From Escherichia coli O127:H6 str. E2348/69 (GTDB taxonomy: Bacteria; Pseudomonadota; Gammaproteobacteria; Enterobacterales; Enterobacteriaceae), in NCBI RefSeq assembly GCF_000026545.1, contig NC_011601.1: a stretch of 64,000 nt of DNA. One strand, written 5' to 3'. Shown piece by piece: positions 5,763-41,230 of the stretch. A program made the translations under genes and the position numbers. Under the pieces are notes generated by a model. The model was not told where the DNA came from, searched no databases, and saw only the letters and a program-made list of their open reading frames with translations. The number at the start of each line of letters is the position of its first letter. Position 1 is the first letter of the stretch.

Positions 5763-6362
5763 ATGCAAATTGGCTATATTCGTGTGTCAACAAATGACCA
5801 GAACACGGATTTACAACGCAATGCACTGAACTGCGCAGGATGTGAACTGATTTTTGAAGATAAAATCAGCGGAACGAAATCAGCCAGACCGGGATTGAAA
5901 AAACTGCTCAGAACGCTATCAGAAGGAGATACGCTGGTTGTCTGGAAGCTGGACAGACTGGGCAGAAGTATGAAACACCTGATCACGCTTATTGAGGAAT
6001 TGCGGGAAAAAGGTGTTAATTTCCGTAGTCTGACGGACAGCATTGACACATCAACACCCATGGGGCGTTTCTTTTTTCACGTCATGGGGGCTTTAGCCGA
6101 AATGGAACGTGAATTAATTGTAGAGCGTACACTGGCCGGGCTGGCAGCAGCACGCGCACAAGGACGCATTGGCGGACGTCGCCCGAAGTTGACAAAAGAA
6201 CAACACGAGCAAATAGCGAGGCTGATTAAAAACGGTCATGACAGGAAACAACTGGCGATCATTTACGACATCGGCATATCGACGATTTATCGTTATCACC
6301 CTGTAGGCGATATACAGGCTGAAGAAACAACCAGGCAGACTCAGGAAAATAAAAACCGCTAA
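5763..6362 (+). CDS. serine DNA invertase, Gin/Pin/Cin/Hin family
   Basis: N-terminus MQIGYIRVSTNDQNTDLQRNAL and internal VVWKLDRLGRSMKHLI, SLTDSIDTSTPMGRFFFHVMGALAEMERELI match Gin/Hin as recalled; C-terminal HTH region. Confidence 0.9.
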   Translation: MQIGYIRVSTNDQNTDLQRNALNCAGCELIFEDKISGTKSARPGLKKLLRTLSEGDTLVVWKLDRLGRSMKHLITLIEELREKGVNFRSLTDSIDTSTPMGRFFFHVMGALAEMERELIVERTLAGLAAARAQGRIGGRRPKLTKEQHEQIARLIKNGHDRKQLAIIYDIGISTIYRYHPVGDIQAEETTRQTQENKNR

Positions 6363-13232: not shown

Positions 13233-13426
13233 ACAACTTAGATGCATTAGCCCTGACATTTGCTAACGCGCTTACAGCAAGAATCATAACCAATCTGACA
13301 GCCTACCCGGTGTCAAAATCAGAAGAGCCTTACATTAGAATATGTTAATTTGTAGCAAACAAATTTACACACAAATGATTACTGCTGAAATAGCCCCCAT
13401 AAATGCCATGTCAAAGGATCCATGTT

Positions 13427-14092
13427 ATGAATATGCAAATTTTTATCGCACCAGCAGCCACAGTTGCTGCAGTCTGCCTTGCTGCATATTTTGCTTTACG
13501 AAATGAACGTAAAAAGAAAGCACTTGAGATTAGAACAACTCAACTAGATCGAATATCTGAGCTAGTAAACCGAGCATCTACCAATTTGATGCAATATACA
13601 GGTACTCTTGCCTCTATACTGGAAGCGCACGCCAAAGATAATTATCTACCGAACAAAAAATTTGACATTAATGTAATTAGCAAATGGAAAGATTGCCTCG
13701 ATGAGAGTGAGGTCTGGGCGATTGATATACAGCAACTAAGAACATGTCAGCACAGTCTGGAGTTTCATCGTGAAAAAGAATGGGCTGAATGGAAAAAAAT
13801 AATTCCACCATTACTTGATAAAATTAACCAATTTTTTCTCATATCTAAGCCAGGGCAACCTGTTACGTTTATAAATGGCCAAAACAAAACAGCTGATGAA
13901 CTACTTGTTTTCTCAAGATATTTGAGAAAACAAACAGCAGAAATTGAATCAGTACGTCAGCTGTTACTTTCTCAAATGAGAGAGGAATTCATCGAGTTAA
14001 CTAGCTTTGAACCTGTCACAATGTTTAGCTTATTTAAATCAATAAAGAAAAATGTCATGCAATTTTTCTGTATCAGTGCTCTTAAAAATTGA
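13427..14092 (+). CDS. hypothetical membrane-anchored protein (N-terminal TM helix), AT-rich insert between D and ogr
   Basis: 229 aa ORF (13403..14092; likely start 13427 or 13433); hydrophobic N-terminus IFIAPAATVAAVCLAAYFAL then charged helical region; markedly lower GC than flanking phage genes. Confidence 0.55.
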   Translation: MNMQIFIAPAATVAAVCLAAYFALRNERKKKALEIRTTQLDRISELVNRASTNLMQYTGTLASILEAHAKDNYLPNKKFDINVISKWKDCLDESEVWAIDIQQLRTCQHSLEFHREKEWAEWKKIIPPLLDKINQFFLISKPGQPVTFINGQNKTADELLVFSRYLRKQTAEIESVRQLLLSQMREEFIELTSFEPVTMFSLFKSIKKNVMQFFCISALKN

Positions 14093-14241: not shown

Positions 14242-14502
14242 ATGTTCCGTTGTCCGCTTTGTGGCGCATCTGCCCGTATCCGCACCAGTCGTCCGGAAAA
14301 TGATTCAAACACCGTGCGGCAAAAGTATTACCAGTGTAACAACCTGGAATGCGGCGTATGCTTCTCAACACTGGAAGCTTTCCATAAATTCACATCGAAA
14401 CACGCCTCCGGCATCCACTCTTCAGAAGGTATCCCGTGGCATGAGCTGCCAGCTTCACACAGGGGAAACAATCAGATGAGCTTGCCTTTACCTCAGAATT
14501 AA
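14242..14502 (+). CDS. ogr: late gene transcriptional activator, Ogr/Delta zinc-finger family
   Basis: N-terminus MFRCPLCGASARIRTSR...YYQCNNLECG with Cys-x2-Cys...Cys-x4-Cys pattern as in P2 Ogr; 86 aa, longer than the ~72 aa recalled for P2. Confidence 0.8.
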   Translation: MFRCPLCGASARIRTSRPENDSNTVRQKYYQCNNLECGVCFSTLEAFHKFTSKHASGIHSSEGIPWHELPASHRGNNQMSLPLPQN

Positions 14503-14562
14503 CAGGCAGAATTGCCGGAGTAACAAAAACGCGATAGATTACGCGCGGGTGCCTTTCGGCTG

Positions 14563-14775
14563 ATGGTCGGAGGGAATACCCGAAGGCCAGATGTGGAAAG
14601 GCCCCGGAAAACATCTCTGTTTAACCGAGGCCCTAACCGCATTACCTTGACAAGTGAAAGGTTAGCGCCTCTCCGGAAAAGGAGCAAGTGCTATGTCGCA
14701 AAAATCGCTTACGGCCATCACGTTCTGCGTGACGGCAATCCTCATCATCTGGATGTTGCACGGTTCGCTGTGTGA
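14563..14775 (+). CDS. mok-like overlapping reading frame of hok-family locus
   Basis: 70 aa ORF in different frame overlapping the hok-like ORF, as mok overlaps hok in plasmid R1. Confidence 0.4.
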   Translation: MVGGNTRRPDVERPRKTSLFNRGPNRITLTSERLAPLRKRSKCYVAKIAYGHHVLRDGNPHHLDVARFAV

Positions 14776-14833
14776 AATACGGATGAGCTTCTGGGGAGCG
14801 GAGTTTGCGGCGTTCTTACAGTGTAAGCAGTAA
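14693..14833 (+). CDS. Hok/Gef-family type I toxin (small membrane peptide)
   Basis: 46 aa: MSQKSLTAITFCVTAILIIWMLHGSLCEIRMSFWGAEFAAFLQCKQ; TM segment followed by SLCEIR and E(V/F)AAF motifs of Hok; good SD (aaaaggag) upstream. Confidence 0.75.
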   Translation: MSQKSLTAITFCVTAILIIWMLHGSLCEIRMSFWGAEFAAFLQCKQ

Positions 14834-14917
14834 GGAAACCGCGACGGGGGAGCAATCCCCCGTCAATCGGTTGCCAGGGTAAGGTCGATAAGGCACCCTA
14901 TCTCACAGACATGAACA

Positions 14918-14952
14918 ACAAACCCGCAGCATAAAAACTGCGGGTTTTCTTT
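14918..14952 (+). terminator. rho-independent terminator downstream of hok-like gene
   Basis: aaacccgcagcataaaaactgcgggttttcttttt hairpin plus T-tract. Confidence 0.6.
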
Positions 14953-15099
14953 TTGGTGTCCTCACCGACTTGAAACAGTGATCAGACTATAAGACAAAGC
15001 CCACAATGTAGCGGGCTTACTCCCCTCCCCCCACTAAATGTGGACGCATCGTGGAACGAAGAGATATAAAACATTATAAATCAATTAGTTATTGAAAGA

Positions 15100-15132
15100 A
15101 AAAAGGCCGCAGAGCGGCCTTTTTAGTTAGAT
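15100..15132 (-). terminator. rho-independent terminator of pheST-ihfA operon
   Basis: aaaaaggccgctctgcggccttttttc on minus strand just after ihfA stop. Confidence 0.7.
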
Positions 15133-15136
15133 CAGA

Positions 15137-15436
15137 TTACTCGTCTTTGGGCGAAGCGTTTTCGACCCGGCTTTTTAACTTCTGCCCGGGTCTGAAGGTC
15201 ACCACGCGCCGTGCTGTAATGGGAATATCCTCGCCCGTTTTCGGGTTACGTCCCGGGCGTTGATTCTTATCACGCAGATCGAAGTTACCAAAACCAGAGA
15301 GTTTCACCTGTTCGCCGTTTTCCAGAGCGCGACGGATCTCTTCGAAAAACAGTTCAACCAGTTCTTTGGCATCCCGCTTGCTAAGCCCAAGCTTATCAAA
15401 CAGATATTCTGACATTTCAGCTTTTGTAAGCGCCAT
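15137..15436 (-). CDS. ihfA: integration host factor alpha subunit
   Basis: 99 aa [33 protein letters not shown]... matches IHF-alpha. Confidence 0.95.
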
Positions 15437-17842: not shown

Positions 17843-19109
<1,267 letters not shown>

Positions 19110-19154
19110 TCAGGTGCTAAAGTAAAAAAAGAAGCGGAAAATAGCAGCATTCAT
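19110..19154 (-). CDS. pheM: pheST operon leader peptide
   Basis: Minus-strand ATG AAT GCT GCT ATT TTC CGC TTC TTT TTT TAC TTT AGC ACC TGA = [14 protein letters not shown] (5 Phe in 14 aa). Confidence 0.9.
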
Positions 19155-41033: not shown

Positions 41034-41230
41034 TAATTTGCACATATTGGTTTGTACGAAAAAGAGTACTTTGTTCACGCCGGATGCGGCGTGAACGCCT
41101 TACTCGACCTACAAAACTATGCAAATTCAATACATTGCAGGAGTCGAATAGGCCTGACAGGCGTAGCACGTCAAACGGTGTAACCTTTGTCATCGACCCG
41201 CCTCTTTTTTAATCGCTCTCCGCCTGTTAC

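What the first reader, a model, noticed from the sequence alone, without database searches (positions are those of the whole stretch)
14510..14955. hok/mok-like type I toxin locus between ogr and host ihfA
A 46 aa ORF (14693..14833) has the Hok/Gef signature (TM helix, SLCEIR, EFAAF) and a strong SD. It is overlapped by a 70 aa ORF in another frame, like mok, and followed by a GC-rich folded 3' region and terminator, as in hok mRNAs. I recall no hok locus downstream of ihfA in K-12. It is either cargo at the prophage right end, which would act as an addiction module, or a strain-specific chromosomal hok copy that marks the insertion site. An antisense Sok-like RNA would be expected on the minus strand near 14540..14620 but cannot be established from sequence alone.
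Basis: partly seen in the sequence, partly recalled or inferred. Interest (0 to 1): 0.6.

Follow-up and report, generated by a model that had tools for sequence, protein, structure and literature searches.

The report
Known Hok toxin locus in prophage
This is a real but already catalogued Hok-family toxin/antisense-RNA module carried as cargo just inside the end of a P2-like prophage in E. coli E2348/69; the only unusual point is that its subfamily has no conserved mok leader frame.

Summary
The 46-aa ORF (14693..14833, +) is real and is a Hok/Gef-family toxin: Pfam HOK_GEF E=4.8e-7, PHROG 251 E=1e-22, and every family-conserved residue is present. RefSeq already annotates it as "Hok/Gef family protein". 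The DNA occurs in 1548 of 5426 complete E. coli genomes. A 2026 preprint cloned this exact peptide (72_1621) for its toxicity assays and does not list it among the three non-toxic homologs.

The locus is prophage cargo, not a host gene. The window is identical to E. coli E2348/69. There a P2-like prophage lies between ihfA and btuC, bounded by a 25-bp direct repeat (the ihfA terminator; window 15095-15119). The hok transcript ends 140 bp inside that boundary. In 96 of 120 related loci, ogr lies directly upstream.

Predicted folds reproduce the plasmid R1 hok folding scheme (tac/fbi closure, ucb, dcb), and the pairings are kept across 57 relatives. An antisense Sok candidate (about 14651 to 14593, minus strand) has the same build as the annotated SokC and SokB.

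The 70-aa "mok-like" ORF is not conserved: 0 of 57 relatives have a canonical mok start. Sok transcription and the regulatory mechanism remain inferred. Low interest: ordinary and known.

The parts
14512..14540 (+). Predicted hok promoter: -35 TTGCCG (14512-14517), 17-nt spacer, -10 TAGATT (14535-14540)
   Evidence: Read from the sequence. It scores 8 of 12, below the 9-of-12 threshold of the consensus scan, which reported no promoter. Across 117 loci with 30 distinct upstream segments, TTGnnn and TAnAtT hexamers stay at a fixed distance from GGGTGCC while the spacers diverge. No transcript data.
14547..14952 (+). Predicted full-length hok mRNA (about 406 nt); both ends are inferred
   Evidence: The Rfam RF01794 model is modelled on the sense strand and starts at the mRNA 5' end in hokC, hokB and R1. 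Its position 1 aligns to 14547. The 3' end follows the terminator at 14920-14947. MFE -177.8 kcal/mol, z=-8.06.
14547..14561 (+). tac-like 5' element (GGGUGCCUUUCGGCU)
   Evidence: It pairs with 14883-14898 in the full-length MFE, with 14565-14581 when the RNA is cut at 14890, and with 14593-14605 when cut at or before 14880. Across the family, 95.1% (tac/fbi) and 97.8% (tac/ucb) of cells are paired.
14593..14607 (+). ucb-like box (GGAAAGGCCCCGG)
   Evidence: It pairs with the GAGG box in the full-length fold and with tac in the truncated fold. Nearly invariant in alignment A1.
14625..14634 (+). GAGG box, homologous to the mok SD/Sok-target region of R1, but with no mok start codon after it
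   Evidence: It aligns with the R1, hokC and hokB GAGGC motif. R1's mok SD is GAGG at nt 104-107 and its mok ATG is at 116-118 (PMC9841398). It pairs with ucb (closed form) or with dcb 14664-14671 (truncated form); 98.6% and 97.7% of cells are paired. 0 of 57 relatives have a canonical start behind it that reaches the hok SD.
14636..14652 (+). Hypervariable patch, complementary to the predicted single-stranded 5' tail of Sok
   Evidence: The least conserved stretch of the leader in A1. It corresponds to the first 16 nt of the unpaired 5' tail of the Sok candidate.
14593..14651 (-). Predicted Sok antisense RNA (about 56-60 nt; 5' end G at 14651, 3' end about 14590-14597)
   Evidence: Same build as the annotated SokC (59 nt) and SokB (57 nt): a 5' tail, a homologous GGCCUCGG/CCGGGGCC hairpin and a U-rich end. 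Two stem positions are standard pairs only on the minus strand: 57/57 and 56/57 there, against 3/57 and 39/57 on the plus strand. No expression data.
14659..14687 (-). Predicted Sok promoter: -35 TTGCTC (14687 to 14682), 17-nt spacer, -10 TAACCT (14664 to 14659)
   Evidence: Same layout as upstream of the annotated SokB (TTGCCG-17-TAAGAT, then 7 nt to the G at +1) and as in R1. Invariant or nearly so in A1. It is weak by consensus (6 of 12; not reported), and the invariance could instead reflect the dcb and SD roles of the sense strand.
14663..14674 (+). dcb-like box (UAGCGCCUCUCC)
   Evidence: It pairs with the hok SD/AUG (14681-14693) in the full-length fold and with the GAGG box in the truncated fold. 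Helix 9 is 93.8% paired across the family, with only one-sided GC/GU changes.
14679..14684 (+). hok Shine-Dalgarno (AAGGAG), 8 nt before the ATG
   Evidence: Sequence. Conserved AAGGAG across hok loci.
14693..14833 (+). hok-family toxin gene, 46 aa (WP_000078916.1)
   Evidence: The identical peptide is listed as 72_1621 in the preprint's set of homologs cloned for toxicity assays.
14563..14775 (+). 70-aa ORF in the -1 frame: not conserved, probably not a gene
14843..14864 (+). GC-rich 3' UTR hairpin (GACGGGGGAG/CUCCCCGUC)
   Evidence: Helix 17 is 99.6% paired, with two pairs changed on both sides. It may correspond to the protective 3' stem-loop of the truncated R1 hok mRNA (PMC9841398); this is inferred.
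14883..14898 (+). fbi-like fold-back element, complementary to the mRNA 5' end
   Evidence: AAGGCACCC (14890-14898) is the exact complement of GGGUGCCUU (14547-14555). Paired in the MFE. Kept in 95.1% of cells, varying only by GC/GU changes.
14920..14947 (+). Intrinsic terminator of the hok transcript
   Evidence: Helix 18 has 6 pairs with changes on both sides within the P2-like clade.
14242..14502 (+). ogr (late-gene activator) of the P2-like prophage, the upstream neighbour
   Evidence: ogr lies upstream on the same strand in 96 of 120 related loci.
15095..15119 (.). Prophage/host junction: 25-bp att core, identical to the ihfA terminator
   Evidence: Direct repeat GGCCGCTCTGCGGCCTTTTTTCTTT at both prophage ends in E2348/69, and a single copy at the K-12 empty site.

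Best explanation
The locus is a hok/sok-family type I toxin-antitoxin module carried as accessory cargo in the ogr-to-att slot of a P2-like (P88/Xuanwuvirus-type) prophage integrated in the ihfA terminator of E. coli E2348/69.

Shown:
- A 46-aa Hok-family membrane-toxin gene under coding constraint.
- Its position inside the prophage.
- A leader and 3' UTR homologous to those of canonical hok mRNAs.

Inferred from folding and comparison:
- A stable mRNA of about 406 nt (14547-14952) is made in a closed form. Its 5' end (tac) pairs with a 3' fbi element, the GAGG box pairs with ucb, and the dcb box covers the hok SD and AUG.
- Slow 3' trimming removes fbi. The 5' end then takes ucb, the freed GAGG box takes dcb, and the hok SD opens.
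- A short, unstable antisense RNA (Sok, about 14651 to 14593, minus strand) binds the GAGG-box region of the trimmed mRNA. This keeps hok silent, by holding dcb on the SD and/or by RNase III cleavage.
- Because the subfamily has no conserved mok frame, control is probably exerted directly on the hok ribosome-binding site rather than through translational coupling.

Biological role (inferred, untested): killing or growth arrest of cells once Sok synthesis stops. This could stabilise the prophage. Alternatively, as reported for hokW-sokW of Sp5, it could aid lysis on induction.
For: Toxin identity:
- Pfam HOK_GEF E=4.8e-7 and PHROG 251 E=1.3e-22, full length.
- All family-conserved residues are present: C12, T14, L26, C27, E28, E37 and C44 (against the logo described).
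- RefSeq and UniRef call it "Hok/Gef family protein".
- The identical peptide was cloned for the preprint's toxicity assays and is not among its three named non-toxic homologs.
- Coding constraint lies in the hok frame only.

Prophage cargo:
- 100% identity to E2348/69 and the prophage gene map.
- The att repeat and the empty K-12 site.
- The same slot in P88 and Chuche, and ogr upstream in 96 of 120 loci.

RNA anatomy:
- Alignment with R1-type hok, hokC and hokB across the leader, SD and 3' fbi.
- Rfam hok-leader model hit at E=4e-9, with the model's strand verified on reference loci.
- MFE z=-8.06 with 5'/3' closure, and the switch between tac/fbi, a metastable hairpin and tac/ucb on 3' truncation.
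- Both conformations are kept in 92-94% of cells across 57 relatives, against 33-52% when partners are slid, with two-sided changes in several helices.

Sok:
- Same build as SokC and SokB, stem pairing specific to the minus strand, conserved promoter layout and a hypervariable recognition tail.

No mok.
Against: - No transcript, 5'/3'-end or protein data for this locus were available. Sok, both promoters and the mRNA ends are predictions.
- Both promoters fall below the consensus scan's threshold, and the Sok -10 is weak (TAACCT).
- The Rfam score (48.4 bits) is below the gathering score of 59, and both NCBIfam Hok models are below their curated cut-offs.
- The structures tested on the family were derived from the window sequence itself, which inflates the slid-partner control. 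The tac/fbi and dcb/SD helices show only one-sided (GC/GU) changes, so they are compatible with pairing but not proven by covariation.
- In this particular allele, an in-frame AUU at -52 (10 nt after GAGG) or the ATG at 14563 could still start a mok-like frame that crosses the hok start.
- The preprint's toxicity result is inferred from its text plus Table S2. The figure itself was not available.
Confidence: 0.85

Rival explanations
1. The locus works exactly like R1 hok/sok. A mok leader frame (the 70-aa ORF from ATG 14563, or the same frame started at AUU 14641 or UUG 14647) is translated, hok translation is coupled to it, and Sok blocks the mok start.
For: In the window the -1 frame is open from 14563 across the hok start. 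An AUU lies 10 nt after the GAGG box and is in that frame. Ten of 57 relatives keep a near-cognate start whose frame reaches the hok SD. [quoted passage not shown]
Against: 0 of 57 relatives have a canonical start behind the GAGG box that reaches the hok SD. In 46 of 57 there is either no start-like codon or the frame stops before the SD. The frame is closed in P88, Chuche and 933W. The R1, hokC and hokB mok ATG aligns to CATTACC here. The overlapping frames show no coding constraint. The ATG at 14563 lies 16 nt from the mRNA 5' end, inside the tac hairpin, with no SD.
Confidence: 0.12
2. It is an orphan or decaying hok copy. The toxin gene is kept silent by its mRNA structure alone, no functional Sok is made, and the locus has no role, as has been argued for several inactivated K-12 chromosomal hok loci.
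For: The Sok promoter is weak by consensus and no promoter was called. The Rfam and NCBIfam scores are sub-threshold. At least one relative (L090) has lost its 5' tac region.
Against: The locus is present in 1548 of 5426 complete genomes, mostly full length. The CDS shows coding constraint. Promoter hexamers persist in divergent contexts. Stem positions pair only on the antisense strand. A hypervariable tail next to a conserved hairpin is the pattern expected if antisense recognition is under selection. The peptide is not listed among the non-toxic homologs.
Confidence: 0.08
3. It is a strain-specific chromosomal hok locus that merely marks the prophage insertion site.
For: It lies within about 300 bp of the host gene ihfA.
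Against: It lies inside the 25-bp att duplication. K-12 homology resumes only at 15095, and the K-12 ihfA-btuC spacer has no hok. Isolated phage genomes (P88, Chuche, PhiR44_2, Xuanwuvirus P884B11) carry it next to ogr.
Confidence: 0.02

Closest known systems
hok/sok of plasmid R1 (parB), the reference type I toxin-antitoxin system
   Same: A small Hok/Gef membrane-toxin peptide with the C-x-T and LCE motifs. An mRNA of about 400 nt with a leader of about 146 nt. A 5'/3' tac-fbi closure, ucb and dcb boxes, and a conserved GAGG box. An antisense RNA with a 5' tail plus hairpin, encoded opposite the leader. A Sok promoter overlapping the dcb/SD region.
   Different: The peptide is only 28% identical and shorter (46 against 52 aa). 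There is no mok start codon where R1 has ATG 116-118. The dcb-to-SD distance is 8 nt shorter. dcb is predicted to cover the hok SD/AUG directly. It is carried by a prophage, not a plasmid. The Rfam leader score is 48 bits, against 87 bits for the R1-type leader.
Chromosomal hokC/mokC/sokC and hokB/mokB/sokB of E. coli K-12
   Same: Homologous leader, Sok hairpin sequence (GGCCUCGG...CGGGGCC) and Sok length (57-59 nt). The Sok 5' end lies about 42-49 nt upstream of the hok ATG.
   Different: The K-12 loci have annotated mok frames starting 57-58 nt upstream of hok; this subfamily does not. The K-12 loci are chromosomal; this one is phage cargo.
hokW-sokW of Stx2 prophage Sp5 (Takada et al. 2021, PMC8621323)
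   Same: A prophage-borne hok/sok module. That one was shown experimentally to be a type I TA system and was reported to aid lysis and phage release on induction.
   Different: It is not the same locus. HokW is 51 aa (MKQQKAM...DYESEK by the published primers) and is hokC/hokD-like. Sp5 and 933W carry a second locus, the 46-aa relative of the window's peptide (74% identical; DNA 81%), downstream of lom. The database label "MokW-like host killing" on the window's family is a family name, not evidence of identity with HokW or Mok.
Hok cluster 72 in Escalera-Maurer et al., bioRxiv 10.1101/2025.08.07.668861
   Same: The identical peptide (72_1621) and the Stx-phage variant (72_1589) are catalogued in a high-abundance cluster and were cloned for arabinose-induced toxicity assays. 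The paper also reports that hok is enriched in prophages.
   Different: That work states explicitly that it did not analyse Mok, Sok or the mRNA elements. The anatomy, the att mapping and the absence of mok reported here are additions.

Membership tests
Hok/Gef toxin family (Pfam PF01848) | Significant match to the family profile over most of a peptide of about 50 aa | tested here: met
   Pfam HOK_GEF i-Evalue 4.8e-7, residues 7-44 on model positions 5-42 of 42. PHROG 251 E=1.3e-22, residues 1-46.
Hok/Gef toxin family (Pfam PF01848) | Family-conserved residues (C16, T18, L30, C31, E32, E41 in logo numbering, plus C or Y near the C-terminus) after an N-terminal hydrophobic helix | tested here: met
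   C12, T14, L26, C27, E28, E37 and C44 align with the conserved columns of Hok R1, HokB, HokC, HokD, HokE, PndA and the 51-aa peptide 35_712 (MKQQKAM…DYESEK, matching the ends deducible for HokW from the published primers). The logo is described.
Hok/Gef toxin family (NCBIfam HokA equivalog NF007290 and Hok subfamily NF007279) | Score at or above the curated cut-off | tested here: not met
   34 bits against a cut-off of 89, and 21.6 against 73. So it is not HokA or a member of those narrow models. It is a divergent subfamily within the wider Hok/Gef family.
Hok/Gef toxin family | Toxicity on overexpression | not testable with these tools
   Not testable here. The literature lists the identical peptide, 72_1621, among 45 cloned homologs, of which only three others are named as non-toxic. 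This is inferred from the text and Table S2, and it is a preprint.
hok/sok type I TA system (R1 paradigm) | hok mRNA with a long leader and a 3' fbi element complementary to the 5' tac element | tested here: met
   GGGUGCCUU (14547-14555) and AAGGCACCC (14890-14898) are exact complements. The 15-bp closure appears in the MFE and is kept in 95.1% of cells in 57 relatives, with GC/GU changes only.
hok/sok type I TA system (R1 paradigm) | Alternative ucb/dcb pairings that give closed and open leader conformations | tested here: inconclusive
   Predicted by MFE for the full-length and truncated RNAs and conserved at 94-98% pairing. However, the boxes are almost invariant, so covariation cannot prove them, and no probing data are available.
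hok/sok type I TA system (R1 paradigm) | Cis-encoded antisense Sok RNA with its own promoter opposite the leader | tested here: inconclusive
   A candidate at about 14651 to 14593 (-) has the SokB/SokC architecture, minus-strand-specific stem pairs and a conserved promoter layout. The promoter is weak by consensus, and no expression data could be examined.
hok/sok type I TA system (R1 paradigm) | Overlapping mok reading frame whose translation is coupled to hok | tested here: not met
   0 of 57 relatives have a canonical start behind the GAGG box that reaches the hok SD. The positive controls (R1, hokC, hokB) pass the same test. The 70-aa ORF is closed in most relatives.
Rfam RF01794 ("sok"; in fact the hok mRNA leader) | Score at or above the gathering threshold (59 bits) | tested here: not met
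   48.4 bits, E=4.3e-9, full model length, + strand 14547-14706. hokC scores 118, hokB 110, R1-type 87, P88 48 and 933W 36 bits. The locus is missed by a gathering-threshold scan of the window.
hokW-sokW of Sp5 (PMC8621323) | Same gene as the published HokW (51 aa, MKQQKAM...DYESEK) | tested here: not met
   The peptide 35_712 (MKQQKAM…DYESEK), which matches the ends of HokW deducible from the published primers, is 28% identical to the window peptide. The window's relative in 933W is a separate locus downstream of lom.
P2-like prophage accessory cargo ("moron") at the ogr-att junction | Located inside the att repeats, absent from the empty site, with its own promoter and terminator, and present in related free phage genomes in the same slot | tested here: met

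The most novel reading that the evidence does not exclude
This prophage-borne Hok subfamily (cluster 72; P2-like and Stx phages) is a variant of hok/sok that does not depend on mok. The element that serves as the mok SD in R1 has become a purely structural anti-anti-SD. In the trimmed mRNA it captures the dcb box and so uncovers the hok SD. Sok represses by occupying it, acting as an RNA relay on the hok ribosome-binding site rather than through translational coupling. The hypervariable Sok tail would then define many non-cross-reacting specificity alleles, which would allow up to 7 copies per genome.
Probability: 0.35. Interest if true: 0.45.

Novelty: already known. Interest (0 to 1): 0.2.

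Why it matters
As posed, the finding adds nothing new. The peptide is annotated in RefSeq in more than 1500 complete E. coli genomes, sits in a PHROG family, and was catalogued and cloned for toxicity testing in a recent survey of Hok diversity. [quoted passage not shown]

The modest added value is in the anatomy:
- The locus is placed exactly, 140 bp inside the att junction of a P2-like prophage that integrates in the ihfA terminator.
- The hok mRNA elements and a Sok candidate are mapped for a subfamily that Rfam's gathering threshold misses.
- The subfamily lacks the mok frame that the R1 paradigm treats as essential.

If that last point holds experimentally, it would show that translational coupling is dispensable in part of the Hok family. 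It would also give a compact natural model of direct RNA-relay control.

Tried and rejected
I replaced it with a degenerate DNA pattern for WGAEFAAF. That pattern selects on the coding region only, so it does not bias the RNA elements.
- I first assumed the locus was the published hokW-sokW because of the "MokW-like" database labels. The primers in PMC8621323 show that HokW is a different, 51-aa peptide, so I rejected this.
- The consensus promoter scan found no promoter on either strand. The promoters are therefore argued only from positional homology and conservation.
- I considered the Rfam "sok" hit on the + strand as possible evidence for a sense-strand sRNA. I rejected this because the model is modelled on the hok mRNA leader in all reference loci.
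- I searched for mini-uORFs and near-cognate starts behind the GAGG box. None is conserved.
- Literature searches for a description of hok in P88/P2-like phages or of the E2348/69 prophage found nothing relevant.
- PADLOC shows no defence-system model for the peptide or for its 229-aa neighbour.
- I did not predict a structure for the peptide. It would not be informative for a 46-aa membrane peptide.
Full report
**Observation**

The window holds a 46-aa ORF at 14693..14833 (+), MSQKSLTAITFCVTAILIIWMLHGSLCEIRMSFWGAEFAAFLQCKQ. An AAGGAG Shine-Dalgarno lies 8 nt upstream. A 70-aa ORF in another frame (14563..14775) overlaps it. A GC-rich hairpin (14843-14864) and a terminator-like hairpin with a T-run (14920-14947) follow.

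**Identity of the peptide**

- It matches Pfam HOK_GEF (E=4.8e-7) and, over its full length, PHROG 251 (E=1.3e-22).
- It matches the NCBIfam HokA and Hok-subfamily models only below their curated cut-offs.
- Aligned with Hok R1, HokB, HokC, HokD, HokE, PndA and the 51-aa peptide 35_712 (which matches the HokW ends deducible from the published primers), it is only 22-30% identical. It still keeps every family-conserved position: C12, T14, L26, C27, E28, E37, and C44 at the C/Y site. The conserved positions are those listed in bioRxiv 10.1101/2025.08.07.668861.
- Among 38 distinct family CDSs, variation is concentrated at third codon positions (25 variable sites, against 12 and 6 at positions 1 and 2). 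The ratio of synonymous to amino-acid-changing variants is 1.8 in the hok frame and 0.17-0.22 in the other two frames. It is a real coding gene.

**It is already known**

- The 461-bp region is 100% identical to E. coli E2348/69, where RefSeq annotates WP_000078916.1 as "Hok/Gef family protein". Matches occur in 1548 of 5426 complete E. coli genomes.
- Public sources name the peptide Hok/Gef or HokA.
- The identical peptide is entry 72_1621 (plasmid LRP137, a high-abundance cluster) in Table S2 of the 2026 preprint on Hok diversity. It was cloned there for arabinose-induced toxicity assays. The text states that 42 of 45 tested homologs were toxic and names the three that were not; 72_1621 is not among them. 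The caveat is that this comes from a preprint and that I inferred the result from the text and table, not from the figure.

**Host gene or prophage cargo?**

- In E2348/69 a complete P2-like prophage lies between ihfA and btuC. It carries capsid, terminase, tail, lysis and replication genes, an integrase, and ogr.
- The two ends share a 25-bp direct repeat, GGCCGCTCTGCGGCCTTTTTTCTTT. This is the ihfA terminator and is present once at the K-12 ihfA-btuC site. In the window the repeat is at 15095-15119.
- The hok transcript ends near 14952, 140 bp inside that boundary.
- Free phage genomes (P88, Chuche, PhiR44_2, Xuanwuvirus P884B11, a Citrobacter phage) carry the same locus at 94-98% identity next to ogr.
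- Of 120 related loci with enough upstream DNA, 96 have ogr directly upstream on the same strand (median gap 193 nt), 11 have lom and 13 have neither.
- The locus is therefore cargo of the ogr-to-att slot. The "chromosomal copy marking the insertion site" alternative is rejected.

**A correction to the database labels**

Phage records call the peptide "MokW-like host killing", which suggests the published hokW-sokW of Sp5 (PMC8621323). That paper's HokW is 51 aa, and its primers give MKQQKAM...DYESEK. That is a canonical hokC/hokD-type gene. The window's relative in 933W/Sp5 (74% peptide identity, 81% DNA identity) is a second locus downstream of lom. The hokW-sokW experiments are a useful analogy for what a prophage hok can do. 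They are not data on this subfamily.

**RNA anatomy**

- The window locus aligns with an R1-type hok, hokC, hokB and the 933W copy along the whole transcript. This covers the 5' end (GGGUGCC...), an AAAGGCCCCG box, a GAGGC box, an AGCGCCUCU box, the AAGGAG SD, and a 3' segment complementary to the 5' end.
- Rfam RF01794, named "sok", is in fact modelled on the hok mRNA leader, from +1 to the hok ATG. It hits the hok sense strand in hokC, hokB and R1 at 87-118 bits. In the window it hits 14547-14706 (+) at 48.4 bits (E=4e-9), below the gathering score of 59. That places the mRNA 5' end at about 14547 and marks the subfamily as divergent. A gathering-threshold scan of the window misses it.
- Upstream, TTGCCG-17-TAGATT (14512-14540) is a plausible promoter. 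Across 30 distinct upstream contexts the two hexamers stay in place while the spacers diverge. The consensus scan's threshold is not reached.

**Folding**

- The 406-nt RNA (14547-14952) has an MFE of -177.8 kcal/mol, z=-8.06 against shuffles.
- In the MFE, the 5' 15 nt pair with 14883-14898 (tac/fbi). The GAGG box (14625-14632) pairs with 14600-14607 (ucb). The hok SD and AUG (14681-14693) pair with 14663-14674 (dcb).
- Cut at 14890, the 5' end forms a local hairpin with 14565-14581, like the metastable structure described for nascent R1 hok mRNA.
- Cut at or before 14880, the 5' end pairs with 14593-14605 (tac/ucb) and the GAGG box pairs with 14664-14671 (dcb). The hok SD is then largely free.
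- This matches the R1 scheme summarised in PMC9841398.
- On 57 distinct relatives (alignment A1), the full-length structure is formed in 92.4% of cells and the rearranged leader in 94.1%, against 33-52% when partners are slid by 1-3 columns. Two-sided changes occur in the long-range leader/3'-UTR helix, the 3' hairpin and the terminator.
- Caveats: the structures come from the window sequence itself, the sequences are closely related, and the key boxes (tac/fbi, GAGG/dcb, dcb/SD) vary only by GC/GU changes. They are consistent with the pairings but are not proven by covariation.

**Sok**

- K-12 annotates SokC and SokB as 59- and 57-nt RNAs whose 5' ends lie 48-49 nt upstream of the hok ATG.
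- The homologous stretch on the window's minus strand (about 14651 to 14593) folds into an unpaired 5' tail, a GGCCUCGG/CCGGGGCC hairpin homologous to those of SokB and SokC, and a U-rich end.
- Upstream lies TTGCTC-17-TAACCT, then 7 nt to a G. This is the same layout as for SokB (TTGCCG-17-TAAGAT, 7 nt, G) and R1.
- Two stem positions are standard pairs on the minus strand in 57/57 and 56/57 sequences, but on the plus strand in only 3/57 and 39/57 (G·U against C·A). This argues that the antisense hairpin itself is selected.
- The stretch complementary to the Sok tail (14636-14652) is the most variable part of the leader. That is expected if the tail sets pairing specificity, and genomes carry up to 7 copies.
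- No expression data could be examined, so Sok remains a prediction.

**mok**

- R1's mok ATG is at nt 116-118, behind the GAGG SD at 104-107. hokC and hokB have ATGs 57-58 nt upstream of hok. In the window and in 933W that position reads CATTACC or CGTACC.
- The 70-aa ORF starts at an ATG 16 nt from the mRNA 5' end. In most relatives that frame is closed 13-55 nt before the hok ATG and has no start codon. The other frames are closed at -15 to -51.
- I also allowed near-cognate starts 4-12 nt after the GAGG box. Of the 57 relatives:
  - 0 have a canonical start whose frame reaches the hok SD.
  - 10, the window included, have only a near-cognate start that does (AUU at -52 in the window).
  - 30 have a start-like codon whose frame stops earlier.
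  - 16 have no start-like codon.
  - 1 has no GAGG box in the searched interval.
- R1, hokC and hokB all pass this test. The overlapping frames show no coding constraint. The "mok-like" argument is therefore not supported.

**Most likely mechanism**

- Shown: a Hok-family toxin gene in prophage cargo with a hok-type mRNA architecture.
- Inferred: a closed, stable full-length mRNA; 3' trimming that releases tac; a tac/ucb and GAGG/dcb switch that opens the hok SD; and Sok binding to the GAGG-box region of the trimmed mRNA. Sok would keep dcb on the SD and/or trigger RNase III cleavage.
- Because mok is absent from the subfamily, control probably acts directly on the hok ribosome-binding site. 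I give the overall identification 0.85. I give about 0.35 to the specific mok-independent relay and 0.12 to the R1-type mok-coupled rival in this allele.
- The biological role is open. Candidates are prophage stabilisation by post-segregational killing, help with lysis on induction (as for hokW-sokW), or exclusion of other phages (cited for R1 hok/sok).

**Verdict**

The finding is real, correctly recognised as a Hok locus, and correctly suspected to be prophage cargo. It is already annotated, catalogued and, according to the preprint, toxic. Novelty: already known. Interest: low (0.2). The one point worth a specialist's attention is the absence of a conserved mok frame in this prophage-borne subfamily. 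The sources I read did not analyse it.

Noticed in passing
window 15095-15119 (and L004 37560-37584): The P2-like prophage integrates in the transcription terminator of ihfA. The 25-bp att core is the terminator hairpin itself and is rebuilt at both junctions. The gene next to the att site encodes a subunit of IHF.
   Followed up: partly
window 15051-15195 (-): Rfam STnc540 (RF02082) passes its gathering score (41.3 against 38) over the ihfA 3' end and terminator. The distal third of the model aligns poorly, because prophage DNA replaces the sequence downstream of the terminator that K-12 has there.
   Followed up: partly
window 13403-14092 (+): A 229-aa ORF lies between the tail gene D and ogr. 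RefSeq annotates a 221-aa hypothetical protein, WP_001057121.1, here. It has no significant NCBIfam match (best E=0.012) and no PHROG or PADLOC match. P88 and Chuche lack a gene of this size in this position, so it looks like a second cargo gene of unknown function.
   Followed up: partly
window about 5763-6362 (L004 9858-10457): RefSeq annotates a "recombinase family protein" flanked by partial tail-fibre genes. This looks like an invertible tail-fibre (host-range switching) segment in the prophage.
   Followed up: no
L008 (phage 933W) 1522-1810, and Sp5: Stx phages 933W and Sp5 carry two different hok loci: the published hokW (51 aa) and a 46-aa relative of the window's peptide directly downstream of lom. 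The database label "MokW-like host killing" is applied to Hok peptides and is misleading.
   Followed up: yes
window 14636-14652, A1 columns about 101-120: A hypervariable patch sits between two highly conserved blocks of the hok leader. It coincides with the predicted Sok 5' recognition tail. Some genomes carry up to 7 copies of the locus, which suggests many specificity alleles that avoid cross-talk.
   Followed up: partly
L090 9684-10109: One family member has its 5' tac region replaced by unrelated sequence but keeps the fbi element, the Sok region and an intact hok CDS. It may be an inactivated or deregulated copy.
   Followed up: no
L004 25443-30380 (same prophage, outside the window): The prophage also carries an S8-family peptidase plus AAA ATPase gene pair and ParM-like partition genes between the portal and replication genes. 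These are further accessory cargo that might be a defence or maintenance system.
   Followed up: no
window 19036-19160 (-) and 41113-41155 (+): Ordinary host features were found in the whole-window Rfam scan: the pheST leader (Phe_leader, 74 bits) and an ES036 (CssrF) sRNA match (42.9 bits).
   Followed up: no
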